DNA of 60,537 bases, taken from NCBI RefSeq assembly GCF_003334255.1, contig NZ_QOWU01000027.1, one strand, 5' to 3'. This document shows, piece by piece, positions 1-27,126 of the stretch. A program made the translations under genes and the position numbers. Each line of letters opens with the position of its first letter. The first letter of the stretch is position 1. The notes under the pieces were generated by a model that was not told the DNA's origin, did no database searches, and was given only the letters and a program-made list of their open reading frames with translations. Source of the stretch: Escherichia coli (GTDB lineage: Bacteria > Pseudomonadota > Gammaproteobacteria > Enterobacterales > Enterobacteriaceae).

Positions 1-2351
1 AGTTATCGTGAGAGTAATTCATCGGCACGTTAAATCATATCAGGCGTAATACCACAACCCTTAAGTTAGCGCTTATGAGTAGTCTCCCCTCCCTGGCTTT
101 CGAAAAAGAAAAAATCGCCGATTCCGGTGCTGGATTTAGCGCCATTAGGCATTGAGCCAATCTGTTATCTGACAGAAGAAATCAGTAATCAACTTTTGGC
201 GAAATATATCTGGTATTCAAAACACATCACGGTTAGCCATGAAGAAAGTACTACCAACCTGTTGGCAAGGATGGGTTTTCAACGACGGATCGCTGGTACA
301 TATATTAAAGCTCCCGAAGCGGTAGTTGAGGCATGGCTAAATGAAGATTATTCAACCTTACTAAGTGAATTTAAGGTGTTTCATTCACCTACCGGGCATT
401 ATTGGCAGTTGGGGATTTTGACAACATTGCCGCTGGAGAAAGCAGTAAAAGCATGGAATGCCCTTACCCTATCTCCACATACCGATACCGAATACTCCAT
501 GTTACATTTTGGACTCAAAGGGTTACCTGGGTTAGTAAACTCACTTGCACGCTATCCACAAGAAGCCTTGCCCATCACGAATTACTTCGCAGCGAGTGAG
601 CTGGCACCTGCCGTCGCCCGCGCCTTCAACAAACTCAAAACCCTACGACAAGACGCCCGTAGCTGGCTGCTAAAATACCCGGAACATGCCATAACCGGCC
701 TGCTACCTGCGGCGCTCGGCAAAGCCGGTGAAGCCCAGGATAACGCCCGCGCTGCCTTGCGTATGCTTACCGAAAACGGTCATCAGCCATTACTGCAAGA
801 AATCGCCCGGCGTTATAACCAGCCGGAAGTAACAGACGCGGTGAACGCTCTGCTTGCGCTCGATCCCTTAGATAATCACCCGACAAAAATCCCCACTCTT
901 CCGGCCTTTTATCAGCCATCGCTCTGGACGCGCCCGGTATTAAAAGCAAACGCCCAATCACTGCCAGATAACGCCCTCCTCCACCTCGGTGAAATGCTCC
1001 GCTTCCCTCAGGAAGAGGCTCTATATCCGGGATTATTGCAGGTGAAAGATGCCTGTACCGCCGACTCACTGGCTGAATTTGCCTGGGATCTGTTTACCGC
1101 CTGGCAGACCGCTGGCGCGCCGTCGAAAGAAAGCTGGGCGTTCACTGCGTTAGGCGTTCTCGGTAACGATGACACCGCCCGCAAACTGACGCCATTAATC
1201 CGCGCCTGGCCTGGCGAATCTCAGCATAAACGTGCCACCGTTGGGTTGGATATTCTCGCTGCTATCGGTAGTGATATCGCCCTGATGCAGCTTAACGGCA
1301 TCGCCCAGAAACTGAAATTCAAAGCATTACAGGAGCGGGCAAAAGAAAAAATTGCCGACATTGCCGAAAGTCGCGAACTCACGGTGGCGGAGCTTGAAGA
1401 TCGGTTAGCACCGGATCTCGGTCTGGATGATAACGGTTCGCTGCTGCTGGATTTCGGCCCACGTCAGTTCACCGTCAGCTTTGATGAAACCTTAAAACCG
1501 TTTGTGCGCGATGCTTCCGGCAGCCGCCTGAAAGACCTGCCCAAACCAAACAAAAGCGATGATGAATCGCGGGCTGATGAGGCGGTTAACCGCTACAAAC
1601 TGCTGAAAAAAGATGCGCGTACCGTCGCCGCCCAGCAGGTGGCAAGGCTTGAATCCGCCATGTGCCTGCGCCGCCGCTGGTCACCAGAAAACTTCCAGCT
1701 CTTCCTGGTTGAGCACCCGATGGTTCGCCACTTAACCCGACGTCTGATTTGGGGCGTTTATAGCGCCGACAACCAGCTACAGGCGTGCTTTAGGGTAGCG
1801 GAAGATAACAGCTACAGCACCGCTGACGATGATCTTTTCACCCTGCCGGAAGGCGATATCTCTCTTGGTATTCCTCACGTTCTGGAAATATCACCGACGG
1901 ATGCTGCCGCCTTTGGTCAGCTTTTGCCGACTACGAACTGCTACCACCGTTCCGTCAGCTTGACCGTAACAGTTACGCCCTGACAGAAGCCGAGCGCAAT
2001 GCCAGCGAATTGATCCGCTGGGCAGGCAGAAAATGCCCGAGTGGTCGGGTAATGGGGCTGGCGAATAAAGGCTGGATAAAGGGCACCCCGCAGGATGCAG
2101 GCTGGATCGGCTGGATGATCAAACCTCTCGGTCGCTGGTCGTTAATCATGGAAATCGATGAAGGCTTTGCGGTAGGCATGTCGCCAGCCGAACTCAGCGC
2201 TGAGCAGCTCTTAAGCAAGCTGTGGCTATGGGAAGGCAAAGCAGAAAGATATGGCTGGGGGAGTAATTCAACACAGGAAGCGCAGTTCTCCGTAATCGAT
2301 GCCATCACCGCCAGCGAGCTAATTAACGATATTGAAGCCCTGTTTGAATAA
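1..2351 (+). pseudogene. molR: molR-like giant DUF4132-family gene, 3' portion, disrupted; window-truncated at 5' end
   Basis: ORF 127..1983 (GTG at 127, frame open back to 79) aligns block-for-block with YehI residues ~440-1150 (GEMLRF, FAWDLFTAWQ, LDFGPRQFTV, RLIWGVY). The homologous reading continues in another frame as ORF 2010..2351 (FADYELLPPFRQL...). The frame switch maps to a T-run at 1922-1925. Stops in all three frames within 1..78. Confidence 0.8.
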
Positions 2352-2360
2352 GGAAAGAGC

Positions 2361-5300
2361 ATGGACAAGGAATTACCGTGGCTGGCGGATAACGCCCAAC
2401 TGGAACTGAAATATAAAAAAGGCAAAACGCCGCTCAGTCATCGTCGCTGGCCGGGCGAACCAGTGTCCGTTATCACTGGAAGTCTCATCCAGACATTGGG
2501 TGATGAATTGCTACAAAAAGCTGAGAAGAAAAAAAACATTGTCTGGCGTTATGAGAATTTTTCACTGGAGTGGCAGTCCGCCATCACGCAGGCCATCAAC
2601 TTGATCGGCGAACACAAACCCTCAATCCCGGCCCGGACAATGGCGGCGCTAGCCTGTATCGCGCAAAATGACAGCCAACAGTTGCTCGACGAAATCGTCC
2701 AACAAGAGGGGCTGGAATATGCGACTGAGGTGGTGATTGCACGCCAGTTTATTGCGCGGTGTTATGAGAGTGATCCTCTGGTAGTGACATTGCAGTATCA
2801 GGACGAGGATTATGGCTATGGTTATCGCTCAGAAACCTATAACGAATTCGATCTCCGACTGCGTAAGCATCTCTCTCTGGCAGAGGAAAGCTGCTGGCAG
2901 CGTTGCGCCGACAAACTCATTGCCGCACTACCAGGAATAACCAAAGTTCGCCGCCCTTTTATTGCGCTGATCCTCCCGGAAAAACCAGAAATAGCCAATG
3001 AGTTGGTAGGCCTTGAATGCCCGCGAACTCATTTTCATTCTAAGGAGTGGTTAAAAGTTGTTGCTAATGACCCCACAGCGGTGAGAAAACTCGAACACTA
3101 CTGGAGCCAGGATATATTTAGCGATCGAGAAGCCAGCTACATGTCGCATGAAAACCACTTCGGCTACGCGGCCTGCGCCGCCCTTTTGCGCGAACAAGGA
3201 CTGGCAGCCATTCCGCGCCTCGCGATGTATGCCCATAAAGAAGATTGCGGCAGTCTGCTGGTACAAATTAACCATCCGCAAGTCATCCGCACCTTGCTAC
3301 TGGTGGCTGATAAAAACAAACCCAGCCTGCAACGTGTGGCTAAATACAGTAAAAACTTCCCCCATGCGACGCTCGCCGCACTGGCAGAACTGCTGGCGTT
3401 AACAGAACCACCAGCCCGCCCTGGTTATCCAATCATCGAAGACAAAAAGCTGCCTGCACAGCAAAAAGCACGCGATGAATACTGGCGTACGCTGTTACAA
3501 ACGCTGATGGCATCGCAGCCACAACTGGCAGCAGAAGTGATGCCGTGGTTAAGTACTCAACCCCAGTCAGTGCTGAAGAGTTATTTATCGGCACCGCCCA
3601 AACCGGTTATTGATGGCACCGATAACAGCAATCTGCCAGAAATCCTCGTTTCACCACCGTGGCGTAGTAAGAAAAAAATGACAGCTCCACGTCTTGATTT
3701 GGCACCGCTCGAATTAACTCCGCAAGTTTACTGGCAACCAGGCGAACAAGAGAGGCTTGCCGCCACTGAGCCTGCCCGTTATTTCAGCACGGAATCTCTT
3801 GCGCAACGCATGGAACAAAAAAGTGGACGAGTTGTATTACAGGAACTGGGTTTTGGGGATGATGTATGGCTGTTTCTGAATTATATACTCCCCGGAAAAC
3901 TGGATGCTGCACGCAATTCACTCATTGTTCAGTGGCATTACTACCAGGGGCGGGTTGAAGAGATCCTGAATGGCTGGAACTCCCCGGAAGCACAATTAGC
4001 AGAACAGGCGCTCCGCAGCGGTCACATAGAAGCGTTAATTAACATATGGGAAAATGACAACTACTCACGTTATCGTCCGGAAAAGAGTGTCTGGAACCTG
4101 TATTTATTGGCACAGTTGCCGCGTGAGATGGCTTTGACCTTCTGGCTGCGTATCAATGAGAAAAAGCATCTGTTCGCGGGTGAGGACTATTTTCTCAGTA
4201 TCCTCGGATTGGATGCGCTACCAGGTCTGCTGTTGGCTTTTTCACATCGTCCAAAAGAAACATTTCCGTTAATTTTAAATTTCGGCGCAACAGAACTGGC
4301 CCTGCCCGTTGCCCGCGTCTGGCACCGTTTTGCGGGCCAGCGTAATCTGGCTCGCCAGTGGATTTTACAATGGCCGGAACATACGGCTACTGCACTTATT
4401 CCACTCGTCTTTGTTAAACCCTGCGACAACAGCGAAGCGGCATTATTTGCCCTTCGTTTACTGTATGAACAAGGACATAGTGAATTACTGCAAACGGTTG
4501 CAAACCGCTGGGATCGCGCTGATATGTGGCCAGCCCTGGAAAAAATACTTACCCAGAACCCGATGGAAATTTACCCGGCACGCATTCCAAAAGCCCCTGA
4601 TTTCTGGCATCCGCAAATGTGGTCCAGGCCGCGCCTTATCACTAATAATCAAACTGTTACCAATGACGCTCTGGAAATTATCGGCGAAATGCTGCGCTTT
4701 ACCCAGGGGGGACGTTTTTATAGCGGGCTGGAACAACTGAAAACGTTCTGCCAGCCACAAACGCTGGCAGCTTTTGCCTGGGATCTCTTCACTGCGTGGC
4801 AACAAGCTGGTGCCCCCGCAAAAGACAACTGGGCATTTCTGGCGTTAAGTCTCTTTGGTGACGAAAGCACGGCACGGGATCTGACGACACAGATCCTCGC
4901 CTGGCCACAAGAAGGCAAATCTGCCCGTGCTGTCAGCGGCCTGAACATCCTTACCCTGATGAATAATGATATGGCGCTGATACAGCTGCATCATATATCG
5001 CAACGGGCTAAATCCCGCCCCTTACGTGATAACGCGGCGGAATTTCTTCAGGTGGTCGCAGAAAATCGCGGGCTAAGCCAGGAAGAGCTAGCGGACAGAT
5101 TAGTCCCAACCCTGGGCCTTGATGATCCGCAGGCGTTGAGTTTTGATTTTGGTCCCCGGCAGTTTACCGTTCGCTTCGATGAAAATCTCAACCCGGTTAT
5201 CTTTGATCAGCAAAACGTTCGCCAGAAAAGCGTTCCCCGTTTGCGCGCCGATGACGATCAACTGAAAGCGCCCGAGGCACTGGCCCGACTAAAAGGGCTA

Positions 5301-5993
5301 AAAAAAGATGCTACTCAGGTGAGCAAAAACCTGCTCCCGCGTCTTGAAACGGCCCTACGTACCACCCGACGCTGGTCGCTGGCAGATTTTCATTCTCTGT
5401 TTGTTAATCATCCCTTTACCCGTCTGGTTACCCAGCGATTAATATGGGGGGTTTATCCGGCAAATGAACCGCGTTGTTTACTCAAAGCCTTTCGTGTGGC
5501 CGCAGAGGGGGAGTTCTGCAATGCGCAAGATGAGCCAATTGACCTGCCTGCGGACGCTCTGATTGGCATTGCCCACCCGTTAGAAATGACAGCAGAAATG
5601 CGCAGTGAATTTGCACAGCTTTTTGCCGATTACGAAATTATGCCGCCTTTTCGCCAGTTGTCGCGCCGCACGGTGCTGCTCACACCTGACGAGTCAACCA
5701 GTAACAGCCTGACTCGCTGGGAAGGTAAATCCGCTACCGTTGGGCAACTTATGGGAATGCGATACAAAGGCTGGGAGTCAGGCTATGAGGACGCATTTGT
5801 CTATAACCTGGGTGAGTACCGGCTGGTCCTTAAGTTTTCACCCGGTTTTAACCACTACAATGTTGATAGCAAAGCGCTAATGAGCTTCCGTTCTCTTCGA
5901 GTGTACCGTGACAATAAATCCGTCACTTTTGCCGAACTTGATGTGTTTGATTTGAGTGAGGCGTTAAGCGCACCTGACGTCATTTTCCATTAA
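2361..5993 (+). CDS. yehI: YehI, large DUF4132-family protein of unknown function (1210 aa)
   Basis: Single ORF of 1210 aa; ATG at 2361 preceded by AAGGAAAGAG; C-terminal ~700 aa paralogous to the molR fragment upstream. Confidence 0.93.
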   Translation: MDKELPWLADNAQLELKYKKGKTPLSHRRWPGEPVSVITGSLIQTLGDELLQKAEKKKNIVWRYENFSLEWQSAITQAINLIGEHKPSIPARTMAALACIAQNDSQQLLDEIVQQEGLEYATEVVIARQFIARCYESDPLVVTLQYQDEDYGYGYRSETYNEFDLRLRKHLSLAEESCWQRCADKLIAALPGITKVRRPFIALILPEKPEIANELVGLECPRTHFHSKEWLKVVANDPTAVRKLEHYWSQDIFSDREASYMSHENHFGYAACAALLREQGLAAIPRLAMYAHKEDCGSLLVQINHPQVIRTLLLVADKNKPSLQRVAKYSKNFPHATLAALAELLALTEPPARPGYPIIEDKKLPAQQKARDEYWRTLLQTLMASQPQLAAEVMPWLSTQPQSVLKSYLSAPPKPVIDGTDNSNLPEILVSPPWRSKKKMTAPRLDLAPLELTPQVYWQPGEQERLAATEPARYFSTESLAQRMEQKSGRVVLQELGFGDDVWLFLNYILPGKLDAARNSLIVQWHYYQGRVEEILNGWNSPEAQLAEQALRSGHIEALINIWENDNYSRYRPEKSVWNLYLLAQLPREMALTFWLRINEKKHLFAGEDYFLSILGLDALPGLLLAFSHRPKETFPLILNFGATELALPVARVWHRFAGQRNLARQWILQWPEHTATALIPLVFVKPCDNSEAALFALRLLYEQGHSELLQTVANRWDRADMWPALEKILTQNPMEIYPARIPKAPDFWHPQMWSRPRLITNNQTVTNDALEIIGEMLRFTQGGRFYSGLEQLKTFCQPQTLAAFAWDLFTAWQQAGAPAKDNWAFLALSLFGDESTARDLTTQILAWPQEGKSARAVSGLNILTLMNNDMALIQLHHISQRAKSRPLRDNAAEFLQVVAENRGLSQEELADRLVPTLGLDDPQALSFDFGPRQFTVRFDENLNPVIFDQQNVRQKSVPRLRADDDQLKAPEALARLKGLKKDATQVSKNLLPRLETALRTTRRWSLADFHSLFVNHPFTRLVTQRLIWGVYPANEPRCLLKAFRVAAEGEFCNAQDEPIDLPADALIGIAHPLEMTAEMRSEFAQLFADYEIMPPFRQLSRRTVLLTPDESTSNSLTRWEGKSATVGQLMGMRYKGWESGYEDAFVYNLGEYRLVLKFSPGFNHYNVDSKALMSFRSLRVYRDNKSVTFAELDVFDLSEALSAPDVIFH

Positions 5994-6053
5994 AACACAG
6001 CGGGCAGTGATGCAACTGCCCGTTATCAACACGACTTACCAGCGGGGAAAGCG

Positions 6054-6371
6054 ATGATCGTGCAAAAAGAGCTGGTTGCTATTTACGATTATGAGGTCCC
6101 TGTACCTGAAGATCCGTTTTCCTTCAGACTTGAGATCCATAAATGCTCTGAATTATTTACAGGTTCCGTCTATCGACTGGAGCGATTCCGGCTACGTCCA
6201 ACATTTCATCAACGTGATCGAGAAGATGCTGACCCGCTAATAAATGATGCGTTGATTTATATAAGAGATGAGTGTATTGATGAGCGGAAATTACGAGGTG
6301 AATCACCTGAAACTGTAATAGCAATTTTTAATCGTGAACTACAGAATATATTCAACCAAGAAATAGAATAA
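6054..6371 (+). CDS. yehK: YehK, small protein of unknown function (105 aa)
   Basis: ORF 6054..6371; GGGGAAAG upstream of ATG; length matches E. coli YehK. Confidence 0.85.
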   Translation: MIVQKELVAIYDYEVPVPEDPFSFRLEIHKCSELFTGSVYRLERFRLRPTFHQRDREDADPLINDALIYIRDECIDERKLRGESPETVIAIFNRELQNIFNQEIE

Positions 6372-6540
6372 TATACTCTAAATAATTCAAATTGGTCCGA
6401 TCCGGCGCAACGTCCCAATGGCCTGGATTATAAATCTCATTATCTTAATTGCAACGGGGTCCAGCCGTGGTTATAATTCGTTCGTTGGAACACGATGTTG
6501 CACAGGCTGTGGTGTTAGGCCTGAAAATAGTAAATAAAAG

Positions 6541-6572
6541 AACCTGCCTCACCAGCAGGTTTTTTTATTTAC
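6541..6572 (+). terminator. Rho-independent terminator (hairpin ACCTGC-CTCACCA-GCAGGT followed by T7)
   Basis: Perfect 6-bp GC-rich stem, 7-nt loop, then TTTTTTTATTT on the + strand, about 170 bp downstream of the yehK stop. Confidence 0.8.
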
Positions 6573-6677
6573 TGTGATCTGCTTTCCAGATATTTTTCGC
6601 TCAAACAACTAATGCGCCAAACATTTATTGCGCGTAAAATATCGTTTATTTCATTAATACATTTCAGGGATGAATAT

Positions 6678-7766
6678 ATGTCACCGCAGAATAATCATCT
6701 GCAGCGTCCGCCTGCTGCTGTGTTATACGCCGATGAACTGGCAAAATTAAAACAAAATGATAACGCACCTTGCCCGCCCGGTTGGCAGTTAAGTTTGCCT
6801 GCGGCCCGTGCTTTTATCCTTGGCGACGAAGCGCAAAATATCAGCCGTAAAGTGGTGATTAGCCCCTCCGCTGTCGAACGTATGTTAGTCACTCTTGCTA
6901 CCGGCCGCGGTTTGATGTTGGTGGGGGAACCGGGTACCGCAAAATCTCTTCTTTCTGAATTACTGGCAACCGCTATTAGCGGCGATGCCGGGTTAACCAT
7001 CCAGGGCGGGGCATCTACCACCGAAGATCAAATCAAGTATGGCTGGAACTACGCCCTGCTTATCAATCATGGTCCGTCAACGGAAGCGCTGGTCCCTGCC
7101 CCGCTTTATCAGGGAATGCGCGACGGCAAAATCGTCCGTTTCGAAGAGATAACGCGTACACCGCTGGAAGTGCAGGACTGTCTGTTAGGTATGCTTTCTG
7201 ACAGGGTGATGACGGTGCCGGAACTCACTGGTGAAGCCAGTCAGCTCTATGCGCGAGAAGGCTTTAATATTATTGCCACTGCCAATACCCGCGATCGCGG
7301 CGTCAATGAAATGAGTGCTGCGCTAAAGCGTCGCTTCGATTTTGAAACGGTTTTTCCGATTATGGATTTCGCCCAGGAGTTGGAACTGGTCGCCAGTGCT
7401 TCGGCGCGTTTGCTGGCCCATAGCGGTATTCCGCATAAAGTGCCTGACGCGGTACTGGAATTACTGGTCCGCACCTTCCGCGATCTGCGTGCCAACGGCG
7501 AAAAGAAAACGTCAATGGATACACTGACAGCGATTATGTCCACCGCTGAAGCCGTGAACGTGGCCCATGCTGTGGGCGTCCGCGCCTGGTTTTTAGCGAA
7601 TCGCGCGGGGGAGCCTGCCGACCTGGTGGAATGTATTGCCGGAACCATCGTCAAAGATAACGAAGAAGATCGCGCGCGTCTGCGCCGTTACTTCGAACAG
7701 CGTGTCGCCACACATAAAGAAGCTCACTGGCAGGCTTATTATCAAGCCCGCCACCGCCTGCCGTGA
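6678..7766 (+). CDS. yehL: YehL, MoxR/AAA_5-type AAA+ ATPase (362 aa)
   Basis: ORF track 6612..7766; start placed at ATG 6678 (MSPQNNH) to give the 362-aa length. Walker A GEPGTAKS at ~6925-6948; Walker B-like VRFEEITR; stop TGA at 7764-7766. Confidence 0.9.
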   Translation: MSPQNNHLQRPPAAVLYADELAKLKQNDNAPCPPGWQLSLPAARAFILGDEAQNISRKVVISPSAVERMLVTLATGRGLMLVGEPGTAKSLLSELLATAISGDAGLTIQGGASTTEDQIKYGWNYALLINHGPSTEALVPAPLYQGMRDGKIVRFEEITRTPLEVQDCLLGMLSDRVMTVPELTGEASQLYAREGFNIIATANTRDRGVNEMSAALKRRFDFETVFPIMDFAQELELVASASARLLAHSGIPHKVPDAVLELLVRTFRDLRANGEKKTSMDTLTAIMSTAEAVNVAHAVGVRAWFLANRAGEPADLVECIAGTIVKDNEEDRARLRRYFEQRVATHKEAHWQAYYQARHRLP

Positions 7767-7776
7767 GGAAAGATGC

Positions 7777-10056
7777 ATGAGCGAGCCGTTAATTGTCGGC
7801 ATCCGGCATCATAGTCCGGCCTGCGCCCGGCTGGTGAAATCGTTAATCGAAAGCCAGCGGCCACGATACGTGTTGATTGAAGGCCCGGCTGATTTTAATG
7901 ACCGGGTAGACGAACTGTTTTTAGCCCACCAGCTTCCGGTAGCTATTTACAGTTATTGCCAGTATCAGGACGGTGCAGCCCCCGGGCGTGGTGCCTGGAC
8001 GCCATTTGCTGAATTTTCGCCGGAGTGGCAGGCGCTACAAGCCGCACGTCGCATTCAGGCACAAACTTACTTCATCGATTTGCCTTGCTGGGCGCAGAGT
8101 GAAGAAGAGGACGATTCGCCTGATACGCAAGATGAAAGCCAGGCCTTACTGCTGCGTGCCACCCGCATGGATAACAGCGATACCCTGTGGGATCACTTGT
8201 TCGAAGATGAAAGCCAGCAAACTGCATTACCCTCTGCGCTGGCGCACTATTTTGCCCAACTGCGGGGCGACGCCTCCGGCGATGCGCTCAATCGTCAGCG
8301 CGAAGCCTTTATGGCCCGCTGGATTGGATGGGCGATGCAGCAAAATAATGGCGACGTGTTAGTTGTCTGCGGTGGCTGGCACGCTCCGGCACTGGCAAAG
8401 ATGTGGCGCGAATGCCCTCAGAAAATTAACAAGCCAGAATTGCCCTCGCTGGCAGATGCCGTTACAGGTTGTTATCTCACACCCTACAGTGAAAAGCGCC
8501 TTGATGTGCTGGCAGGATACCTTTCAGGAATGCCTGCCCCGGTATGGCAAAACTGGTGCTGGCAGTGGGGCTTGCAGAAGGCCGGTGAACAACTGCTAAA
8601 AACTATCCTTACCCGTTTGCGCCAGCACAAATTGCCCGCTTCTACCGCGGATATGGCTGCCGCTCATCTGCATGCGATGGCGCTGGCACAGTTGCGCGGT
8701 CATACACTACCGTTACGCACTGACTGGCTGGATGCCATAGCAGGCTCGCTGATTAAAGAAGCCCTGAACGCGCCGTTGCCGTGGAGCTATCGCGGCGTTA
8801 TTCATCCCGATACCGATCCGATTCTGCTAACGTTGATAGACACATTAGCGGGTGACGGATTCGGTAAACTTGCCCCTTCTACGCCACAACCGCCTCTGCC
8901 AAAAGATGTCACCTGCGAACTGGAACGTACCGCAATCTCCCTTCCGGCGGAGCTTACCTTAAATCGCTTTACCCCCGATGGGCTGGCGCAAAGTCAGGTG
9001 TTACATCGGCTGGCAATACTGGAGATCCCTGGGATTGTACGCCAGCAGGGAAGTACACTGACACTTGCAGGCAACGGTGAAGAACGCTGGAAATTAACCC
9101 ACCCGCTTAGCCAGCATGCGGCATTGATTGAGGCCGCCTGCTTTGGCGCCACGCTCCAGGAAGCCGCACGCAATAAATTAGAAGCCGATATGCTGGACGC
9201 GGGTGGAATCGGCTGCATCACCGCATGTCTTAGCCAGGCGGCGTTAGCGAGTCTGGCGTCCTTCAGTCAACAATTACTGAAGCAACTCACGTTATTAATC
9301 GCCCAGGAAAATCAATTTGCCGAAATGGGCCCGGCGCTGGAAGTGCTATATGCCTTATGGCGGCTGGATGAAATTAGCGGTATGCAAGGTGCGCAGATAT
9401 TACAAACGACGTTATGCGCGGCTATCGATCGCACGCTGTGGCTGTGTGAATCCAACGGCAGACCGGATGAAAAGGAGTTTCACGCTCACCTGCATAGCTG
9501 GCAAGCGTTGTGCCATATTCTGCGCGATCTGCATAGCGGCGTTAATTTACCCGGCGTTTCTCTTTCTGCGGCGGTAGCCTTACTGGAGCGACGCAGTCAG
9601 GCGATTCATGCCCCGGCGCTGGATCGCGGCGCGACTCTTGGTGCGCTGATGCGTCTGGAACATCCCAACGCCAGTGCCGAAGCGGCGCTGACAATGCTGG
9701 CGCAGTTATCCCCGGCACAATCCGGCGAGGCGCTGCACGGTTTGCTGGCATTAGCCCGTCATCAACTGGCCTGTCAGCCGGCATTTATCGCCGGTTTCAG
9801 CAGTCATTTAAATCAACTAAGTGATGCCGATTTTACCAATGCCCTGCCCGATTTACGCGCGGCAATGGCCTGGCTACCGCCACGAGAACGCGGGACGCTG
9901 GCGCATCAGGTGCTTGAGCATTATCAACTGGCGCAACTTCCCGTTTCGGCACTGCAAATGCCGTTGCATTGTCCACCGCAAGCCATTGCACATCATCAAC
10001 AACTCGAACAGCAGGCACTGGCATCGCTGCAACACTGGGGAGTTTTCCATGTCTGA
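7777..10056 (+). CDS. yehM: YehM, protein of unknown function (759 aa)
   Basis: ORF track 7636..10056; start ATG 7777 (MSEPLIVGIRHH), 10 nt after the yehL stop, preceded by GAGGAAAG. Confidence 0.88.
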   Translation: MSEPLIVGIRHHSPACARLVKSLIESQRPRYVLIEGPADFNDRVDELFLAHQLPVAIYSYCQYQDGAAPGRGAWTPFAEFSPEWQALQAARRIQAQTYFIDLPCWAQSEEEDDSPDTQDESQALLLRATRMDNSDTLWDHLFEDESQQTALPSALAHYFAQLRGDASGDALNRQREAFMARWIGWAMQQNNGDVLVVCGGWHAPALAKMWRECPQKINKPELPSLADAVTGCYLTPYSEKRLDVLAGYLSGMPAPVWQNWCWQWGLQKAGEQLLKTILTRLRQHKLPASTADMAAAHLHAMALAQLRGHTLPLRTDWLDAIAGSLIKEALNAPLPWSYRGVIHPDTDPILLTLIDTLAGDGFGKLAPSTPQPPLPKDVTCELERTAISLPAELTLNRFTPDGLAQSQVLHRLAILEIPGIVRQQGSTLTLAGNGEERWKLTHPLSQHAALIEAACFGATLQEAARNKLEADMLDAGGIGCITACLSQAALASLASFSQQLLKQLTLLIAQENQFAEMGPALEVLYALWRLDEISGMQGAQILQTTLCAAIDRTLWLCESNGRPDEKEFHAHLHSWQALCHILRDLHSGVNLPGVSLSAAVALLERRSQAIHAPALDRGATLGALMRLEHPNASAEAALTMLAQLSPAQSGEALHGLLALARHQLACQPAFIAGFSSHLNQLSDADFTNALPDLRAAMAWLPPRERGTLAHQVLEHYQLAQLPVSALQMPLHCPPQAIAHHQQLEQQALASLQHWGVFHV

Positions 10057-11185
10057 ACTGAACGATCTTCTGACCACCCGTGAGCTACAACGCTGGCGAT
10101 TAATTCTTGGCGAAGCGGCAGAAACGACGCTTTGTGGGCTGGATGACAACGCCCGGCAGATAGACCACGCGCTGGAGTGGCTGTATGGGCGCGATCCTGA
10201 ACGGCTCCAGCGTGGTGAACGCTCCGGTGGATTAGGTGGCTCAAATCTCACCACCCCTGAGTGGATCAACAGTATTCACACGCTGTTTCCGCAACAGGTG
10301 ATTGAGCGGCTGGAAAGCGATGCCGTACTGCGCTACGGCATTGAAGATGTGGTGACAAATCTCGACGTGCTGGAACGTATGCAGCCTTCCGAAAGCCTGC
10401 TACGCGCCGTTTTGCACACCAAACATCTGATGAATCCCGAAGTACTGGCTGCCGCCCGCCAGATAGTGCGCCAGGTTGTTGAAGAAATTATGGCGCGACT
10501 GGCAAAGGAAGTTCGCCAGGCTTTTTCTGGTGTCCGCGATCGCCGTCGCCGTTCATTTGTTCCACTGGCGCGAAACTTTGATTTCAAAAGTACTCTGCGC
10601 GCCAACCTGCAACACTGGCACCCGCAACACGGCAAGTTGTATATCGAATCCCCCCGCTTTAACAGCCGCATTAAACGCCAAAGCGAACAATGGCAACTGG
10701 TCTTACTGGTTGATCAAAGCGGCTCGATGGTCGATTCGGTGATCCACTCTGCGGTGATGGCGGCCTGTTTGTGGCAGTTACCCGGCATTCGTACCCATCT
10801 GGTGGCGTTTGACACAAGCGTCGTTGATCTCACGGCAGACGTTGCCGATCCGATAGAGTTATTAATGAAAGTGCAATTAGGCGGCGGAACCAATATCGCC
10901 AGTGCCATGGAGTATGGTCGGCAACTTATTGAACAACCTGAAAAAAGCGTCATTATCCTAGTGAGCGATTTTTATGAAGGGGGTTCATCATCATTGCTGA
11001 CGCATCAGGTGAAAAAGTGTGTCCAGAGCGGCATCAAAGTGCTGGGACTGGCAGCGCTCGATAGCACAGCAACGCCTTGCTATGACCGCGATACGGCCCA
11101 GGCGCTGGTTAATGTCGGCGCACAAATAGCCGCCATGACACCGGGCGAGCTGGCATCATGGCTTGCGGAGAATCTTCAGTCATGA
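10049..11185 (+). CDS. yehP: YehP, von Willebrand factor A (VWA, CoxE-like) protein with complete MIDAS motif (378 aa)
   Basis: ORF track 9821..11185; start ATG 10049 (MSELNDLL) overlaps the yehM stop by 8 nt. MIDAS D-x-S-x-S (LVDQSGSM) at ~10711-10728, plus downstream T and D residues. Confidence 0.88.
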   Translation: MSELNDLLTTRELQRWRLILGEAAETTLCGLDDNARQIDHALEWLYGRDPERLQRGERSGGLGGSNLTTPEWINSIHTLFPQQVIERLESDAVLRYGIEDVVTNLDVLERMQPSESLLRAVLHTKHLMNPEVLAAARQIVRQVVEEIMARLAKEVRQAFSGVRDRRRRSFVPLARNFDFKSTLRANLQHWHPQHGKLYIESPRFNSRIKRQSEQWQLVLLVDQSGSMVDSVIHSAVMAACLWQLPGIRTHLVAFDTSVVDLTADVADPIELLMKVQLGGGTNIASAMEYGRQLIEQPEKSVIILVSDFYEGGSSSLLTHQVKKCVQSGIKVLGLAALDSTATPCYDRDTAQALVNVGAQIAAMTPGELASWLAENLQS

Positions 11186-13182
11186 ATTCACTACGTCCGG
11201 AATTATTAGAACTGACACCGCAGGCACTGACGGCGTTAAGCAATGCCGGTTTTGTTAAGCGCAGTCTTAAGGAACTGGAAAATGGCAACGTCCCGGAAAT
11301 CAGCCATGAGAACGGCGCTTTAATCGCCACCTTCAGTGACGGTGTCCATACCCAGCTGGCGAACGGCCAGGCACTGAAAGAGGCTCAGTGCACCTGTGGG
11401 GCCAGCGGCATGTGCCGTCATCGCGTGATGCTGGTGTTAAGTTATCAACGACTTTGTGCTACCGCCCAGCCTACGGGAAAAGAAGAGGAATGGGATCCGG
11501 CAATCTGGCTGGAAGAACTGGCTACCCTTCCCGATGCCACCCGCAAACGCGCACAGGTATTGGTCGCTAAAGGCATCACCATTGAGTTGTTATGTGCGCC
11601 GGGTGAAATTCCCTCTGCCCGCTTACCGATGAGCGATGTGCGTTTTTATTCCCGCAGCAGTATTCGTTTCGCCCGTTGTGATTGTATTGAAGGCACACTT
11701 TGCGAACATGTCGTACTGGCTGTGCAGGCCTTCGTCGAGGCCAAAGCGCAGCAAGCGGAATTTACTCATTTAATCTGGCAGATGCGCAGCGAACACGTCA
11801 CATCATCTGACGATCCGTTTGCCAGCGAAGAGGGCAACGCGTGTCGTCAATATGTTCAGCAATTAAGCCAGACATTATGGCTTGGCGGCATCAGCCAGCC
11901 GCTTATTCACTACGAGGCAGCATTCAACCGCGCATTGCAGGCGGCAGAGACCTGCAACTGGCGCTGGGTGAGTGAATCGCTACGGCAACTGCGCGCCAGC
12001 GTTGATGCCTTCCACGCCCGCGCCAGCCACTATAATGCCGGAGAATGCTTACATCAGCTTGCGGCATTAAACAGTCGATTAAATTGCGCACAAGAGATGG
12101 CCCGGCGCGACAGTATTGGTGAAGTTCCTCCTGTGCCGTGGCGCACGGTCGTTGGCTCTGGCATTGCCGGAGAAGCAAAGCTTGATCATCTGCGGCTGGT
12201 GTCTTTAGGTATGCGTTGCTGGCAGGATATTGAGCATTATGGTTTACGCATCTGGTTTACCGATCCCGACACCGGCAGTATTTTGCACCTTTCGCGCAGT
12301 TGGCCGCGAAGTGAACAGGAAAACTCACCGGCAGCTACGCGTCGGCTGTTTAGTTTTCAGGCTGGCGCACTGGCGGGCGGGCAAATTGTTTCACAAGCAG
12401 CAAAACGCAGTGCCGATGGCGAGCTGCTGTTAGCTACCCGCAACCGCTTAAGCAGCGTTGTGCCGCTGTCGCCTGATGCCTGGCAAATGTTGAGCGCGCC
12501 GTTACGCCAGCCGGGCATTGTGGCTTTGCGGGAATATTTACGCCAGCGTCCCCCCGCCTGCATACGGCCTCTTAATCAGGTCGATAACTTATTTATTCTG
12601 CCGGTCGCTGAGTGTATTTCGCTCGGTTGGGATAGCAGCCGCCAGACGCTGGATGCGCAGGTAATCAGCGGCGAAGGTGAAGATAATCTGCTGACGTTAT
12701 CACTGCCAGCCTCAGCCAGCGCGCCTTATGCCGTTGAACGCATGGCGGCGCTTTTGCAACAAACAGACGACCCCGTGTGTCTGGTTTCTGGCTTTGTCAG
12801 TTTTGTTGATGGGCAATTGACACTGGAACCACAGGTAATTATGACAAAGACTCGTGCCTGGGCGCTGGACGCTGAAACTGCGCCTGTGGCACCACTACCT
12901 TCTGCCAGCGTTTTGCCTGTGCCGTCTACTGCTCATCAGTTGCTGATGCGCTGCCAGGCGTTACTTATTCAACTGCTCCATAACGGCTGGCGCTATCAGG
13001 AACAGAGCGCTATTAGTCAGGCAGAGTTGCTGGCGAATGACCTCACCGCGGTGGGTTTTTATCGGCTGGCACATGTGTTGGGGCAATTTCGTAATACAGA
13101 AAGCGAGGCACGGGTAGAAGCAATAAATAACGGTGTTTTGCTTTGCGAACAATTATTCCCCATGCTTCAGCAACAAGGATGA
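11182..13182 (+). CDS. yehQ: YehQ, protein with two SWIM-type zinc-finger motifs (C-x-C-x5-C-x-H)
   Basis: ORF track 11158..13182; start ATG 11182 (MNSLRPELL) overlaps the yehP stop as ATGA. CTCGASGMCRH at ~11389-11421 and CDCIEGTLCEH at ~11677-11710. Exact start is uncertain. Confidence 0.82.
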   Translation: MNSLRPELLELTPQALTALSNAGFVKRSLKELENGNVPEISHENGALIATFSDGVHTQLANGQALKEAQCTCGASGMCRHRVMLVLSYQRLCATAQPTGKEEEWDPAIWLEELATLPDATRKRAQVLVAKGITIELLCAPGEIPSARLPMSDVRFYSRSSIRFARCDCIEGTLCEHVVLAVQAFVEAKAQQAEFTHLIWQMRSEHVTSSDDPFASEEGNACRQYVQQLSQTLWLGGISQPLIHYEAAFNRALQAAETCNWRWVSESLRQLRASVDAFHARASHYNAGECLHQLAALNSRLNCAQEMARRDSIGEVPPVPWRTVVGSGIAGEAKLDHLRLVSLGMRCWQDIEHYGLRIWFTDPDTGSILHLSRSWPRSEQENSPAATRRLFSFQAGALAGGQIVSQAAKRSADGELLLATRNRLSSVVPLSPDAWQMLSAPLRQPGIVALREYLRQRPPACIRPLNQVDNLFILPVAECISLGWDSSRQTLDAQVISGEGEDNLLTLSLPASASAPYAVERMAALLQQTDDPVCLVSGFVSFVDGQLTLEPQVIMTKTRAWALDAETAPVAPLPSASVLPVPSTAHQLLMRCQALLIQLLHNGWRYQEQSAISQAELLANDLTAVGFYRLAHVLGQFRNTESEARVEAINNGVLLCEQLFPMLQQQG

Positions 13183-13258
13183 AATAGTGCTTTTTACTAA
13201 GAGCTCTACTCCAGTTCCGGACTGCTCACGCCACGGTATTAGGCATATCCTATATAGC

Positions 13259-13286
13259 CCCTGGTGAGAGTCACCAGTTTCTTGAT
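13259..13286 (+). terminator. Rho-independent terminator downstream of yehQ
   Basis: Perfect inverted repeat CTGGTGA-GAG-TCACCAG followed by TTTCTTGATT. Confidence 0.7.
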
Positions 13287-13306
13287 TAAATAAAATGGAG
13301 TTTTAC

Positions 13307-13768
13307 ATGAAGGCTTTCAATAAGCTGTTTTCCCTCGTTGTTGCATCTGTTCTGGTTTTCTCTCTTGCTGGCTGCGGTGACAAAGAAGAATCGAAGAAAT
13401 TCAGCGCCAATCTGAACGGCACTGAAATTGCCATTACCTATGTCTACAAAGGTGACAAGGTGCTTAAGCAATCTTCTGAAACCAAAATTCAATTTGCCTC
13501 CATTGGTGCAACCACCAAAGAAGATGCTGCCAGGGCACTTGAGCCGTTAAGCGCCAAATACAAAAACATCGCGGGTGTTGAAGAAAAATTAACCTATACC
13601 GATACCTACGCGCAGGAAAACGTGACTATCGATATGGAAAAAGTGGATTTTAAAGCCCTGCAGGGTATTTCAGGAATCAACGTTTCTGCTGAAGATGCCA
13701 AAAAAGGTATCACTATGGCGCAAATGGAACTGGTGATGAAAGCCGCTGGTTTTAAAGAAGTGAAATAA
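13307..13768 (+). CDS. yehR: YehR, lipoprotein (153 aa)
   Basis: ORF track 13295..13768; start ATG 13307 with TGGAG SD; signal peptide ending in lipobox LAGC. Confidence 0.88.
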   Translation: MKAFNKLFSLVVASVLVFSLAGCGDKEESKKFSANLNGTEIAITYVYKGDKVLKQSSETKIQFASIGATTKEDAARALEPLSAKYKNIAGVEEKLTYTDTYAQENVTIDMEKVDFKALQGISGINVSAEDAKKGITMAQMELVMKAAGFKEVK

Positions 13769-13772
13769 TCTG

Positions 13773-13800
13773 TCGGCGGCCATGTTTCGCATGGCCGCCA
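13773..13800. terminator. Bidirectional hairpin terminator between convergent yehR and yehS
   Basis: 10-bp perfect stem GGCGGCCATG / CATGGCCGCC with loop TTTCG. Confidence 0.7.
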
Positions 13801-13808
13801 TACCCGTC

Positions 13809-14279
13809 TTAGCTTTTCTTCACATGCTGGCGCGCTGCCAGTCCACGCAGAAAATAACGTAAAAATTGATCGCCGCATTCGCGGAAGTTTTTATGATCCG
13901 GTGCACGCATCATCGCCGTAATTTCCGGCATCGAAACGCGGAACTGCTGTTCGGTGAGGATCGCCAGAATGTCATCGGTTTTCAGCGAAAACGCGATGCG
14001 TAATTTTTTCAGCACGATGTTGTTATTAATGCGACGTTCCGGCTCCAGTGCCGGAGCAGACTCATCCTTGCCGCGTTTTTCATAAATCAGGCCATTGAGG
14101 AATGACGACAAAACAATGTCCGGACAACGCTGAAAACCCTCTTCGTCTTCTTTACGTAGCCAGACGGCGATCTGTTCCGCGGTGGCTTCGACATTACCCA
14201 GCGCCAGAATACGCACCAGGTCATTATTATTGGCTTTCAAAATGTAGCGCACGCTGCGCAGAATATCGTTACTTAGCAT
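13809..14279 (-). CDS. yehS: YehS, DUF1456-family protein (156 aa)
   Basis: ORF track 13809..14336 (-); start trimmed to ATG at 14279 (MLSNDILRSV). Confidence 0.85.
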   Translation of the reverse strand: MLSNDILRSVRYILKANNNDLVRILALGNVEATAEQIAVWLRKEDEEGFQRCPDIVLSSFLNGLIYEKRGKDESAPALEPERRINNNIVLKKLRIAFSLKTDDILAILTEQQFRVSMPEITAMMRAPDHKNFRECGDQFLRYFLRGLAARQHVKKS

Positions 14280-14325
14280 GAGGCCTTCAGGTGTTGATGA
14301 GGCAAAAAGCCATTTTAGCAGTCTT

Positions 14326-15045
14326 TTACAGGCCAATCGCCTCTTTTAAGCTTTTCAGATAACGGCGGCTGACCGGCACGGTTAAGCCATTACGCAAAAT
14401 CAACTCGGCCTGGCCGTTATCTTCCAGACGAATCTCCTGTAAATGCGCGAGGTTAACCAGATACTGACGATGGCAGCGCAGTAGTGGTGTACGACTTTCC
14501 AGGGTACGTAATGTCAATTCGGTAAAGCCCTCTTTCCCTTCGTGGCTGGTAACGTAGACACCGCTCATCCGACTGCTGACAAATGCCACATCTTTCATTT
14601 GCAGCAAATAAATCCGACTATGCCCAGTACAAGGGATAAATTTCAGCGCCTGTTGATTTTCTGGTAACAGCGAAACATCCTGCTTGCTGCGTTCCTGCCG
14701 CAAACGCGCCAGCGTTTTCTCCAGTCGCGCTTCATCAATTGGCTTCAGCAGATAATCAAAGGCGTGTTCTTCAAAGGCTTTAATGGCGTATTCGTCAAAC
14801 GCGGTGAGAAAAACAATATACGGACGATGTTCCGGGTCGAGCATCCCCACCATTTCCAGACCACTGATGCGCGGCATCTGGATATCGAGAAACAGCACAT
14901 CCGGGCGCAGTTTATGCACCGCGCCGATCCCTTCCACGGCGTTTGAACACTCACCAACGATTTCAATATCGCTCTGCTCCTGCAAAAATACGCGCAGGTT
15001 CTCCCGTGCTAACGGTTCATCATCGACAATTAAGACTTTAATCAT
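14326..15045 (-). CDS. btsR: BtsR (YehT), LytTR-family response regulator (239 aa)
   Basis: ORF track 14326..15060 (-); receiver domain ([15 protein letters not shown]...D) and C-terminal LytTR domain; start overlaps the btsS stop as ATGA. Confidence 0.92.
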
Positions 15046-16727
15046 GCCTCGTCCCTCCATGGTAGTCGTAACGTTATTCGGGTGTAACTATCAGGCTCAC
15101 AGGCGACGCTTATCCCATAGTCATCGCCAAACCGTTCACGTAAACGCTTATCCACCAGATTCATCCCCAGCCCACTGGCATTGGTTACCGGTTGATACAA
15201 ACCGGCATTGTCTTCGATCTCCAGCATTAAATGTTGCCCCTCACGTCGGGCGCTGATTGCCACTCGCCCTGTATCCAGCAGTTGTGATGTCCCATGTTTA
15301 ATGGCGTTTTCCACTATCGGTTGCAGGGTAAACGCGGGCAATTGCTGCTGGGATAATTCTTGCGGAATAGCAATGTTGACCTGCAACCGCGACTGGAAGC
15401 GCGCCTTTTCAATTTGCAGATAAGCATTCACATGTTCAATTTCGTCGGCGAGAGTAACAAACTCCGAAGGCCGCTTTAAGTTTTTGCGGAAAAAAGTGGA
15501 AAGATACTGCACCAGCTGGCTGGCCTGTTCGCTGTCGCGACGGATCACCGCTTTAATGGTGTTAAGCGCATTAAACAAAAAATGGGGATTCACCTGGGCG
15601 TGAAGCAGTTTGATCTCTGACTGGGTGAGCATCGCTTTTTGCCGCTCATATTGCCCGGCAAGGATCTGCGCCGAAAGCAGTTGCGCAATCCCCTCGCCCA
15701 GCGTGCGGTTGATTGAACTGAATAAACGGTTTTTGGCTTCATACAATTTGATGGTGCCCATCACCCGCTGATTTTCACCACGCAACGGAATTACCAGCGT
15801 CGACCCCAGTTTGCATTGCGGATGCAAAGAGCAACGGTAAGGTACTTCGTTGCCATCAGCGTAGACCACTTCACCGGTTTCAATCGCTTTTAAGGTATAA
15901 GTCGAAGAAATCGGTTTGCCGGGTAAATGGTGGTCGTCACCAATTCCGGTAAAGGCCAGCAATTTCTCTCGATCGGTAATCGCGACTGCACCAATATCCA
16001 GCTCCTGATACAGCACCTGTGCCACTTTCATGCTGTTCACTTCGTTAAACCCCTGGCGCAAAATGCCTTCCGTCGAGGCCGCCACTTTCAGCGCAGTGGC
16101 AGAAAAAGCTGAAGTGTATTTTTCAAACATCGCGCGTTTATCGAGCAATATACGCATAAACAGCGCCGCGCCGACGGTATTGGTGACCATCATTGGCGCA
16201 GCAATATTACTCACCAGACGTACCGCATCTTCATAAGGTCGGGCGATCGCCAGGATGATCAACATTTGCACCATTTCAGCGACGAACGTGACGGCACCGG
16301 CGGTAATGGGGTTAAAGACTTTATCAGTGCGCCCGCGACGGATCAGGATGCTGTGTACCAGGCCGCCGAGCAATCCTTCAACGATGGTTGAGATCATGCA
16401 ACTTAGCGCGGTCATGCCCCCCATCGAATATCGATGTAAGCCGCCGGTCAGACCAACCAGCCCACCGACGACCGGACCGCCGAGTAAGCCGCCCATTACC
16501 GCGCCTATCGCACGGGTATTGGCAATAGAATCGTCAATGTGCAACCCAAACCAGGTGCCCATGATGCAGAAGATGGAAAAGACGATGTAGCAGAGAAATT
16601 TATGCGGCAGACGAACCGTGACCTGCATTAACGGTATGAATAATGGCGTTTTACTCATTAACCACGCAATGACTAAAAAAACGCACATCTGCTGAAGCAG
16701 CAGCAACACCAGATTAAAATCGTACAT
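15042..16727 (-). CDS. btsS: BtsS (YehU), LytS-family sensor histidine kinase (561 aa)
   Basis: ORF track 15042..16742 (-); N-terminal multi-pass membrane region, GAF region, H-box ([12 protein letters not shown]) and ATPase domain. Confidence 0.92.
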
Positions 16728-16948
16728 ACCCGCAAACCACACTTCCCTTTAAAACGCGTAACATACATTGCCTGCGTTTAACTTTCTTTGAACTCTTGCA
16801 GAAAAATGAGAATTCGTGAGTACGATCACTCAAAATCGCCTGGCAAAAATAAAATCACCCTATAGATGCACAAAAAACGGGCAAAACTACCTGGTTCGCA
16901 AAACTGCGTCTAAAGTTAAACCGGGACCTCGCGAGCAAGGGTGAGACG

Positions 16949-26953: not shown

Positions 26954-27126
26954 GATGAGCATTCAGATAGTGGTTCACGCGCACGGGTTGCGCACCGCCG
27001 GAGTAAGGATTTACTGAGGCTAGCGACGCCATCATAACGAGCAAAAAGTGCGATCGTCAAAGGAGAATCGTGAGGAAATGCTGCATTGCTGACATTTACG
27101 CCAGCAATGCAACGTCAAAGAACTTT

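What the first reader, a model, noticed from the sequence alone, without database searches (positions are those of the whole stretch)
6372..6572. Orphan 170-bp unit ending in a strong intrinsic terminator: candidate small protein or sRNA between yehK and yehL
The strongest terminator in the region (6541-6572) sits 170 bp beyond the yehK stop, not adjacent to it. Immediately before it is a 39-codon ORF (6418..6537, MAWIINLIILIATGSSRGYNSFVGTRCCTGCGVRPENSK) with a hydrophobic N-terminus and a Cys-rich tail, whose stop lies 3 nt before the hairpin. Against it: no recognisable Shine-Dalgarno upstream of the ATG, so this may be a non-coding 3' UTR or sRNA rather than a protein.
Basis: seen in the sequence. 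Interest (0 to 1): 0.4.

Follow-up and report, generated by a model that had tools for sequence, protein, structure and literature searches.

The report
Orphan OrzP antitoxin small RNA gene
The 170-bp unit between yehK and yehL is the leftover antitoxin half (the small RNA OrzP) of a toxin-antitoxin pair whose toxin gene has been deleted; it is real but was already described in E. coli K-12 in 2024, and the 39-codon reading frame across it is a chance ORF.

Summary
The unit is not a small-protein gene and not simply a yehK 3' UTR. Window 6491-6566 (+) matches Rfam OrzO-P (RF02083) at 99.9 bits against a gathering score of 60.

Alignment with E. coli 536 and O157:H7 shows an "orz-only" remnant of the zor-orz type I toxin-antitoxin locus. 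About 396 bp carrying the 29-aa Zor toxin ORF and most of its 174-nt 5' UTR are missing.

What remains:
- The orzP promoter, TTGCAA-17-TATAAT.
- The 84-nt OrzP sRNA, 6484-6567.
- The divergent zor promoter.
- A stub of about 30 nt of the zor 5' UTR.

The ORF's ATG lies upstream of the OrzP transcription start and is ACG or ACA in relatives. The orzO paralogs are frameshifted with stops.

This exact sequence is published as "OrzPmg" for MG1655 (PMC11264685), with a northern blot. Term-seq (PMC7815308) places a 3' end at window 6567. About 34% of 5,426 complete E. coli genomes have orz without zor.

Already known, low interest. What the orphan RNA does is still open.

The parts
6054..6371 (+). 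yehK CDS (105 aa), the left flank of the locus
   Evidence: ORF list. Annotated as yehK in MG1655 and other RefSeq records.
6389..6419 (-). Stub of the zor toxin mRNA 5' UTR, about 29-31 nt. The inferred +1 is at 6419. The deletion junction is around 6389-6391, within a short TT[C/A/G]AA repeat.
   Evidence: Alignment to E. coli 536 and O157. The TSS was placed by the published 174-nt UTR length (PMC5397157 abstract) counted from the zor ATG in the relatives. PMC11264685 reports 27-29 nt of zor UTR retained in orz-only strains.
6427..6454 (-). Remnant zor promoter: -35 TTGCAA at 6454-6449, a 16-nt spacer, -10 TATAAT at 6432-6427
   Evidence: Promoter scan, 10 of 12 matches. The same hexamers occur in all eight zor-orz copies examined. 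PMC11264685 Table 3 gives the same hexamers.
6449..6477 (+). orzP promoter: -35 TTGCAA at 6449-6454 (the same palindromic hexamer used by the zor promoter), a 17-nt spacer, -10 TATAAT at 6472-6477
   Evidence: Promoter scan, 10 of 12 matches. Identical to O157:H7 orzP.
6484..6567 (+). OrzP (OrzPmg) antitoxin sRNA, 84 nt
   Evidence: Rfam RF02083 at 99.9 bits over 6491-6566. The 5' end is inferred from the -10 position and from the published statement that the first 18 nt of Orz pair with zor (PMC3919570). The 3' end comes from Term-seq 2204485 in MG1655 (PMC7815308 supplement), using the window-to-MG1655 offset of 2197918.
6484..6503 (+). 5' target-recognition region of OrzP. The V1 triplet ACG at 6492-6494 distinguishes OrzP from OrzO.
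   Evidence: 19 of 20 nt are complementary to the zor 5' UTR of E. coli 536, with a duplex energy of -34.0 kcal/mol. V1 'ACG' is taken from PMC3919570.
6534..6567 (+). Rho-independent terminator of OrzP: core stem 6541-6547 / 6555-6561, U tract 6560-6566. It is palindromic, so it also looks like a terminator on the minus strand.
   Evidence: Term-seq 3' end.
6418..6537 (+). 39-codon ORF, judged fortuitous rather than a gene
6679..7766 (+). yehL CDS, the right flank
   Evidence: Annotated start in MG1655 and others, which maps to window 6679 with the 2197918 offset. ORF list.

Best explanation
The unit is an 'orz-only' remnant of the zor-orz type I toxin-antitoxin locus. A sigma-70 promoter (TTGCAA-17-TATAAT, 6449-6477) drives an 84-nt small RNA, OrzP, from 6484 to 6567, which ends at the strong Rho-independent terminator. 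In strains that still carry the toxin gene, the first 18-20 nt of Orz pair with the long 5' UTR of the divergently transcribed zor mRNA, which encodes a 29-aa membrane toxin. That pairing triggers RNase III-dependent repression and does not need Hfq; this was shown for OrzO and zorO in PMC3919570. Here a deletion of about 396 bp removed the toxin ORF and the pairing site. It left the zor promoter, about 30 nt of zor leader, and an intact orzP gene. In MG1655, whose sequence is identical over this region, the RNA is still made: a northern blot and Term-seq show it. I infer that it has no cognate target. Most likely it is a harmless molecular relic that persists because losing a toxin leaves its antitoxin free of cost. 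The 39-codon ORF is a by-product of a lineage-specific C-to-T change that creates an ATG at the former zor transcription start.
For: The Rfam OrzO-P match scores 99.9 bits against a gathering score of 60, E = 3e-17, covering the full model. The window is base-for-base identical to O157:H7 orzP from 6425 to 6571. E. coli 536 has one zor-orz pair in the same yehK-yehL gap and O157:H7 has two, with the ZorO/ZorP ORFs MDTLTQKLTVLIAVLELLVALLRLIDLLK and MDSLTQ.... The window has no Zor ORF: the best tblastn hit is 23.6 bits, against 79.4 bits for the control. It also has no site within 3 mismatches of the 20-nt pairing sequence other than orzP itself. The cognate duplex energy is -34.0 kcal/mol. Complete zor-orz pairs sit between yehK and yehL in E. 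whittamii and two other Escherichia species, so the complete locus is ancestral and orz-only is derived. Among 5426 complete E. coli genomes, 5230 have orz and 3398 have zor, so about 1832 (34%) are orz-only. From the literature: PMC11264685 names this RNA OrzPmg, shows it by northern blot in MG1655 and its absence in a deletion mutant, and reports about 30% orz-only genomes that retain 27-29 nt of zor UTR. Term-seq 'orphan' plus-strand 3' ends at 2204485 and 2204446 correspond to window 6567 and 6528. MG1655 differs from the window at only 1 of 1541 positions around the locus, and that position is in yehL.
Against: The window is not MG1655 itself: it is 98.1% identical over 17 kb. Expression in this particular strain is therefore inferred from sequence identity of the promoter and the RNA. 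The exact 5' end (6484) is inferred, not measured here. 'No target, so a relic' rests on absence of evidence, because I could only scan 60 kb plus three other type I toxin loci for targets. The authors of PMC11264685 themselves suggest that the conserved orphan may have another function.
Confidence: 0.93

Rival explanations
1. The orphan OrzP is retained because it does something. It could act as an 'anti-addiction' immunity factor that neutralises an incoming zorP gene acquired by recombination or transduction, or it could regulate new mRNA targets in trans.
For: About a third of complete E. coli genomes keep orz without zor. The promoter and RNA are identical to the O157 orzP gene. The RNA is still expressed in MG1655, and the authors raise this possibility (PMC11264685).
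Against: E. coli strains diverge so little that an 84-nt gene would stay intact for a long time without selection. In three orz-only strains the orz block carried 0-3 substitutions, which is not clearly fewer than yehK with 0-3. One of those substitutions weakens the terminator stem. One strain has lost orz together with yehLMPQ through IS1. OrzP pairs no better than background with the dinQ, tisB or shoB mRNAs. No site in the 60-kb window meets the published pairing rule of 15 continuous or 17 discontinuous nt (rule from PMC3919570).
Confidence: 0.15
2. The 39-codon ORF (6418-6537) encodes a small hydrophobic, Cys-rich protein.
For: The ORF exists and ends just before a terminator.
Against: There is no Shine-Dalgarno sequence. 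The ATG lies 66 nt upstream of the only documented transcript start, within the divergent promoter region. The ATG is ACG or ACA in 536, the O157 orzP copy, N780, the E. whittamii orzP-type copy and Escherichia sp. MOD1-EC7003. The orzO-type copies have a 2-nt length difference and in-frame stops. The conservation pattern is that of promoter hexamers plus an RNA, not of codons.
Confidence: 0.02
3. The region is just the yehK 3' UTR, and the hairpin is the yehIK operon terminator.
For: No other plus-strand terminator lies between the yehK stop and 6541, so read-through yehK transcripts probably also end at this hairpin.
Against: A near-consensus promoter sits at 6449-6477. The Term-seq 3' ends were classed as 'orphan', not as yehK ends. 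The northern signal disappears when the orz promoter and the first 34 nt are deleted (PMC11264685). In strains with zor, the same terminator lies 600-1100 bp from yehK.
Confidence: 0.05

Closest known systems
OrzP / OrzPmg (orzP of the zorP-orzP locus, E. coli O157:H7 EDL933; Rfam RF02083 OrzO-P)
   Same: The promoter, the 84-nt transcribed region and the terminator are identical. The chromosomal position between yehK and yehL is the same. It has the V1 triplet ACG. It matches the 'orz-only' (0.5 copy) state described for MG1655 in PMC11264685.
   Different: Compared with the O157 locus, the cognate zorP toxin gene and its pairing site are deleted. Compared with MG1655, I found no difference in the locus itself.
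OrzO (antitoxin of zorO, the experimentally dissected paralog)
   Same: It has the same architecture: a 5' single-stranded pairing region, a small internal hairpin and an identical terminator. Repression is RNase III-dependent and Hfq-independent (PMC3919570).
   Different: The V1 triplet is GAA rather than ACG, and the central part differs, including a 2-nt length difference. OrzP cannot repress zorO (PMC3919570).
IstR-1/tisB, OhsC/shoB and AgrB/dinQ type I systems
   Same: In all of them a divergently transcribed sRNA uses a short 5' stretch to pair far upstream in a long toxin 5' UTR.
   Different: They are unrelated in sequence. OrzP shows only background-level pairing to those K-12 toxin mRNAs, -16 to -21 kcal/mol against -34 for zor. 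In K-12 those loci keep their toxins.

Membership tests
OrzO-P antitoxin sRNA family (Rfam RF02083) | Scores above the curated gathering threshold on the covariance model, over its full length | tested here: met
   99.9 bits against a threshold of 60, model positions 1-76 of 76, window 6491-6566 plus strand. This is the same score as the O157 and 536 orzP copies.
OrzO-P antitoxin sRNA family (Rfam RF02083) | Located in the yehK-yehL intergenic region, like the characterised loci | tested here: met
OrzO-P antitoxin sRNA family (Rfam RF02083) | Own conserved sigma-70 promoter (-35 TTGCAA, -10 TATAAT) | tested here: met
   One search finds it at 6449-6477. The hexamers are invariant in eight copies from five genomes and species, and they match Table 3 of PMC11264685.
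OrzO-P antitoxin sRNA family (Rfam RF02083) | 5' end complementary (18-19 nt) to a zor 5' UTR; OrzP subtype defined by V1 = ACG | tested here: met
   19 of 20 nt pair with the zor leader of E. coli 536, -34.0 kcal/mol. ACG lies at 6492-6494.
OrzO-P antitoxin sRNA family (Rfam RF02083) | Expressed as a discrete small RNA | not testable with these tools
   Literature only: a northern blot in MG1655 compared with a deletion mutant (PMC11264685), and Term-seq 3' ends at 2204485 and 2204446 (PMC7815308).
Complete zor-orz type I toxin-antitoxin system | 29-aa Zor toxin ORF divergent from orz | tested here: not met
   tblastn of ZorO and ZorP against the whole window gives a best hit of 23.6 bits, against 79.4 bits in the positive control. 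The alignment shows about 396 bp missing.
Complete zor-orz type I toxin-antitoxin system | Orz-complementary site in the toxin mRNA 5' UTR | tested here: not met
   At up to 3 mismatches, on both strands of the window, only the orzP copy of the 20-mer is found.
Complete zor-orz type I toxin-antitoxin system | Divergent zor promoter | tested here: met
   TTGCAA-16-TATAAT on the minus strand, 6454-6427, followed by about 30 nt of zor leader.
Small protein-coding gene (the 39-aa ORF) | Start codon and reading frame conserved in orthologous and paralogous copies | tested here: not met
   The ATG occurs only in the window/K-12 type. Four orzP-type copies and the orz-only strain N780 have ACG or ACA instead. 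All three orzO-type copies are frameshifted and contain stops.
Small protein-coding gene (the 39-aa ORF) | Ribosome-binding site, and the start codon included in a transcript | tested here: not met
   There is no Shine-Dalgarno sequence. The ATG lies upstream of the OrzP 5' end, in the promoter region.

The most novel reading that the evidence does not exclude
The orphan OrzP RNA, kept by about a third of E. coli strains after losing its toxin, may not be a fossil. It could have a function of its own. One possibility is immunity against re-acquired zorP (anti-addiction). Another is regulation of unrelated mRNAs. A third is that the surviving zor promoter, which shares its palindromic -35 hexamer with the orz promoter, drives antisense transcription into yehK.
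Probability: 0.15. Interest if true: 0.5.

Novelty: already known. Interest (0 to 1): 0.15.

Why it matters
The result corrects a tempting mis-annotation: a hydrophobic, Cys-rich 39-aa 'small protein' that is really a promoter plus an sRNA. It also places the window in the 'antitoxin-only' class of E. coli strains. In the RefSeq records I examined, no feature is annotated at this locus, including MG1655, so sequence-only readers will keep rediscovering it. The remaining open biological question is whether orphan type I antitoxins have functions beyond repressing their toxin. That is of moderate interest, and the published work has already raised it.

Tried and rejected
1. Small-protein reading. 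Rejected on start-codon, frame and promoter-overlap evidence.

2. A second target for OrzP.
- A blastn 'distant' search of the 39-nt 5' region against all complete E. coli genomes at E <= 10 returned only the orzP copy itself. It did not even report the known 19/20 zorP site in O157, so it was too insensitive to be informative.
- RNAduplex scans against the dinQ, tisB and shoB mRNA regions of K-12 gave background-level energies.
- The best non-self duplex in the window is -28.6 kcal/mol at 54781-54809, inside a 362-aa ORF. It is gapped and GC-driven, and the longest continuous complement anywhere in the window is 10 nt. It is therefore below the published functional threshold.

3. Antisense transcript from the remnant zor promoter across yehK. 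No minus-strand Term-seq 3' ends are listed in MG1655 positions 2203900-2204399, and none in 2204500-2204599. I found no support for it, but it is not excluded.

4. The Thomason et al. 2015 dRNA-seq tables (PMC4288677) were not available, so I could not check the 5' end independently.

5. Selection test on orz in orz-only strains. Three genomes give far too little power.

6. The weak Rfam hits to Thr, Trp and Phe leaders and to STnc370 are just the terminator hairpin, and all are well below their gathering scores.

Full report
**Observation.**
- The window around 6372-6572 is the yehK-yehL intergenic region of an E. coli chromosome. yehK (105 aa) ends at 6371. yehL is annotated in the RefSeq records, and its annotated start maps to window 6679.
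- The consensus scanner listed the hairpin only on the minus strand. I think the plus-strand stem absorbs the T tract by A-U pairing, and the fold shows that 14-bp stem.

**Identity.**
- A covariance-model scan of 5900-6800 gave one strong hit: Rfam RF02083, the OrzO-P RNA antitoxin family. It covers window 6491-6566 on the plus strand at 99.9 bits (gathering score 60), E = 3e-17, over the full length of the model. A scan of the whole window at gathering thresholds reproduced it.
- The promoter scan found two divergent near-consensus sigma-70 promoters. TTGCAA-17-TATAAT lies on the plus strand (6449-6477), just upstream of the Rfam match. TTGCAA-16-TATAAT lies on the minus strand (6454-6427). 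Both use the same palindromic -35 hexamer.

**Comparison with complete loci.**
- The same gap is 307 bp in the window, 703 bp in E. coli 536 and 1240 bp in O157:H7 EC4115.
- Strain 536 carries one zor-orz pair and O157 carries two tandem pairs. The toxin ORFs are on the minus strand: ZorO is MDTLTQKLTVLIAVLELLVALLRLIDLLK, and ZorP has T3S.
- From 6425 to 6571 the window is identical to the yehL-proximal O157 copy, which is orzP. It has the OrzP-specific V1 triplet ACG at 6492-6494 (V1 definition from PMC3919570).
- Relative to 536, about 396 bp are missing. They contained the toxin ORF, its terminator and most of the 174-nt 5' UTR, including the site that pairs with Orz.
- Counting 174 nt upstream of the zor ATG in the relatives puts the zor +1 exactly 7 nt after the minus-strand -10 hexamer. 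That corresponds to window 6419, so roughly 29-31 nt of zor leader survive (6419 down to about 6389).
- The junction lies in a short TT[C/A/G]AA repeat that is present at both ends of the missing segment. This suggests a microhomology-mediated deletion, which is my inference.

**The toxin and its target site are really gone.**
- tblastn with ZorO and ZorP against the whole 60.5-kb window gives nothing above 23.6 bits. The positive control gives 79.4 bits.
- At up to 3 mismatches on either strand, the 20-nt pairing sequence occurs only once, as orzP itself.
- The only meaningful match of the deleted 536 segment to the window is the 20-nt repeat at 6484-6503 that creates the sRNA-mRNA complementarity.
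- RNAduplex gives -34.0 kcal/mol (6 + 13 bp with one mismatch) for OrzP against the 536 zor leader.

**Direction of evolution.**
- An exact-match scan of one genome per species found the Orz terminator block in Escherichia whittamii (two copies), Escherichia sp. MOD1-EC7003 and Escherichia sp. E1V33. Each lies between yehK and yehL homologues, and each has an intact Zor ORF and an Rfam-positive Orz.
- The complete locus is therefore ancestral, and the orz-only state is derived by deletion.

**Population frequency.**
- Among 5426 complete E. coli genomes, the orz promoter plus sRNA block is found in 5230. The zor ORF plus UTR segment is found in 3398. About 1832 genomes (34%) therefore have orz without zor.
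- No feature is annotated under these matches in the records listed, and MG1655 has none between yehK and yehL.

**The 39-codon ORF.**
- Its ATG (6418-6420) overlaps the former zor transcription start. It lies 66 nt upstream of the OrzP 5' end, so the sRNA transcript does not contain it.
- The middle base of the ATG is a lineage-specific T. The codon is ACG in 536, in Escherichia sp. MOD1-EC7003 and in the orz-only strain N780. It is ACA in the O157 orzP copy and in the E. whittamii orzP-type copy. None of these has an alternative in-frame start after the preceding stop.
- The 'hydrophobic N-terminus' is encoded by the variable spacer between the conserved promoter hexamers. It becomes LACRIA in another species.
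- The three orzO-type paralogs differ by 2 nt in length and run into stops in this frame.
- The conservation pattern is that of two promoters plus an RNA, not of codons.

**Literature.**
- PMC3919570 established zorO-orzO as a genuine type I toxin-antitoxin pair. OrzO uses its first 18 nt, needs RNase III and does not need Hfq. OrzP cannot repress zorO because of V1. The paper stated that lab strains such as MG1655 lack the locus.
- PMC11264685 (mSystems 2024) revised this. About 30% of genomes are 'orz-only' and retain 27-29 nt of the zor 5' UTR, and 96% of those are the orzP type. The MG1655 sequence is 100% identical to EDL933 orzP. The RNA, named OrzPmg, was detected by northern blot and was absent from a deletion mutant.
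- The Term-seq tables of PMC7815308 list 'orphan' plus-strand 3' ends at MG1655 2204485 and 2204446. With the offset of 2197918, derived, these are window 6567, right after the U tract, and window 6528, after the internal hairpin.
- The window is not MG1655: it is 98.1% identical over 17 kb. It differs from MG1655 at only one of 1541 positions around the locus, and that position is in yehL.

**Mechanism.**
- *Shown here.* The gene's identity, its promoter and terminator anatomy, the loss of the toxin and its target site, the non-conservation of the ORF, and the frequency of the orz-only state.
- *Taken from the literature.* Expression in MG1655 and the Orz mode of action.
- *Inferred.* The exact 5' end (6484), expression in this strain, and the view that the RNA is now a cost-free relic.

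**Tests of the alternative that the orphan has a function.**
- OrzP's 5' region pairs with the dinQ, tisB and shoB mRNAs of K-12 at -16 to -20.6 kcal/mol. This is inside the background distribution (mean -13.9, sd 3.2; the 1st percentile is -22.4).
- The best non-self duplex in the window is a gapped, GC-driven -28.6 kcal/mol inside a 362-aa ORF. The longest continuous complement anywhere in the window is 10 nt, well below the published requirement of 15 continuous or 17 discontinuous nt.
- In three orz-only strains the orz block carried 0-3 substitutions, one of them in the terminator stem. yehK carried 0-3 and the first 602 nt of yehL carried 19-25. That is no clear excess of constraint, and the test has very little power.
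- One strain has an IS1 immediately after the zor stub and has lost orz together with yehLMPQ.
- A whole-genome target search was not possible with the tools I had.

**Verdict.** The feature is a member of a known family in a state that has already been published for the identical sequence. Novelty: already known. Interest: low. The residual open question is whether orphan type I antitoxins do anything.

Noticed in passing
window 6449-6454: The -35 hexamer TTGCAA is palindromic and is shared by the two divergent promoters, orz on the plus strand and the zor remnant on the minus strand. RNA polymerase binding to the two is therefore probably mutually exclusive.
   Followed up: partly
window 6528 (MG1655 2204446): Published Term-seq lists a second plus-strand 3' end inside OrzP, just after the internal hairpin. 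This suggests a processed or prematurely ended species of about 45 nt. It appears in a different condition table from the full-length end at 6567.
   Followed up: no
window 6419-6000, minus strand: The surviving zor promoter points into yehK in the antisense direction, and a minus-strand terminator-like hairpin lies at 6022-6001. No minus-strand Term-seq 3' ends are listed in MG1655 2203900-2204399, so I found no evidence for an antisense RNA. It is not excluded.
   Followed up: partly
window 1-17083 against MG1655: The window is 98.1% identical to MG1655 over 17 kb but differs at only 1 of 1541 positions in 5740-7280. The yehK-orz-yehL segment is K-12-like within a more divergent background, which suggests a recombination mosaic.
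   Followed up: no
L010 (E. coli WP2-S18-ESBL-08) 1584-2339: An IS1A element sits immediately after the zor-UTR stub, and yehR follows it directly. orz and yehL-yehQ have been deleted in this strain.
   Followed up: partly
L002 (E. coli 536) about 1552-1640: Strain 536 has about 87 extra bp between yehK and the zor terminator compared with O157 (GTGAATCCCCAGGAGCTTAC...). From memory this resembles an ERIC/IRU repeat. I did not test it.
   Followed up: no
L001, L002, L008, L009, L010: Genes of the yehI-yehM cluster are often annotated as pseudogenes. yehM has an internal stop in O157 EC4115. yehK is frameshifted in 536. yehI is frameshifted or stopped in KMi006, N780 and WP2-S18-ESBL-08.
   Followed up: no
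window 38687-38764 (-) and 26958-27038 (-): There are two other Rfam matches above gathering score: naRNA4 (RF02564, 88.3 bits) and the Peptidase-S11 RNA motif (RF03039, 72.8 bits).
   Followed up: no
window 54781-54809 (+): This is the best non-self predicted duplex for the OrzP 5' region in the window, at -28.6 kcal/mol, gapped, near the 3' end of a 362-aa ORF (53783-54871). It is most likely chance.
   Followed up: partly
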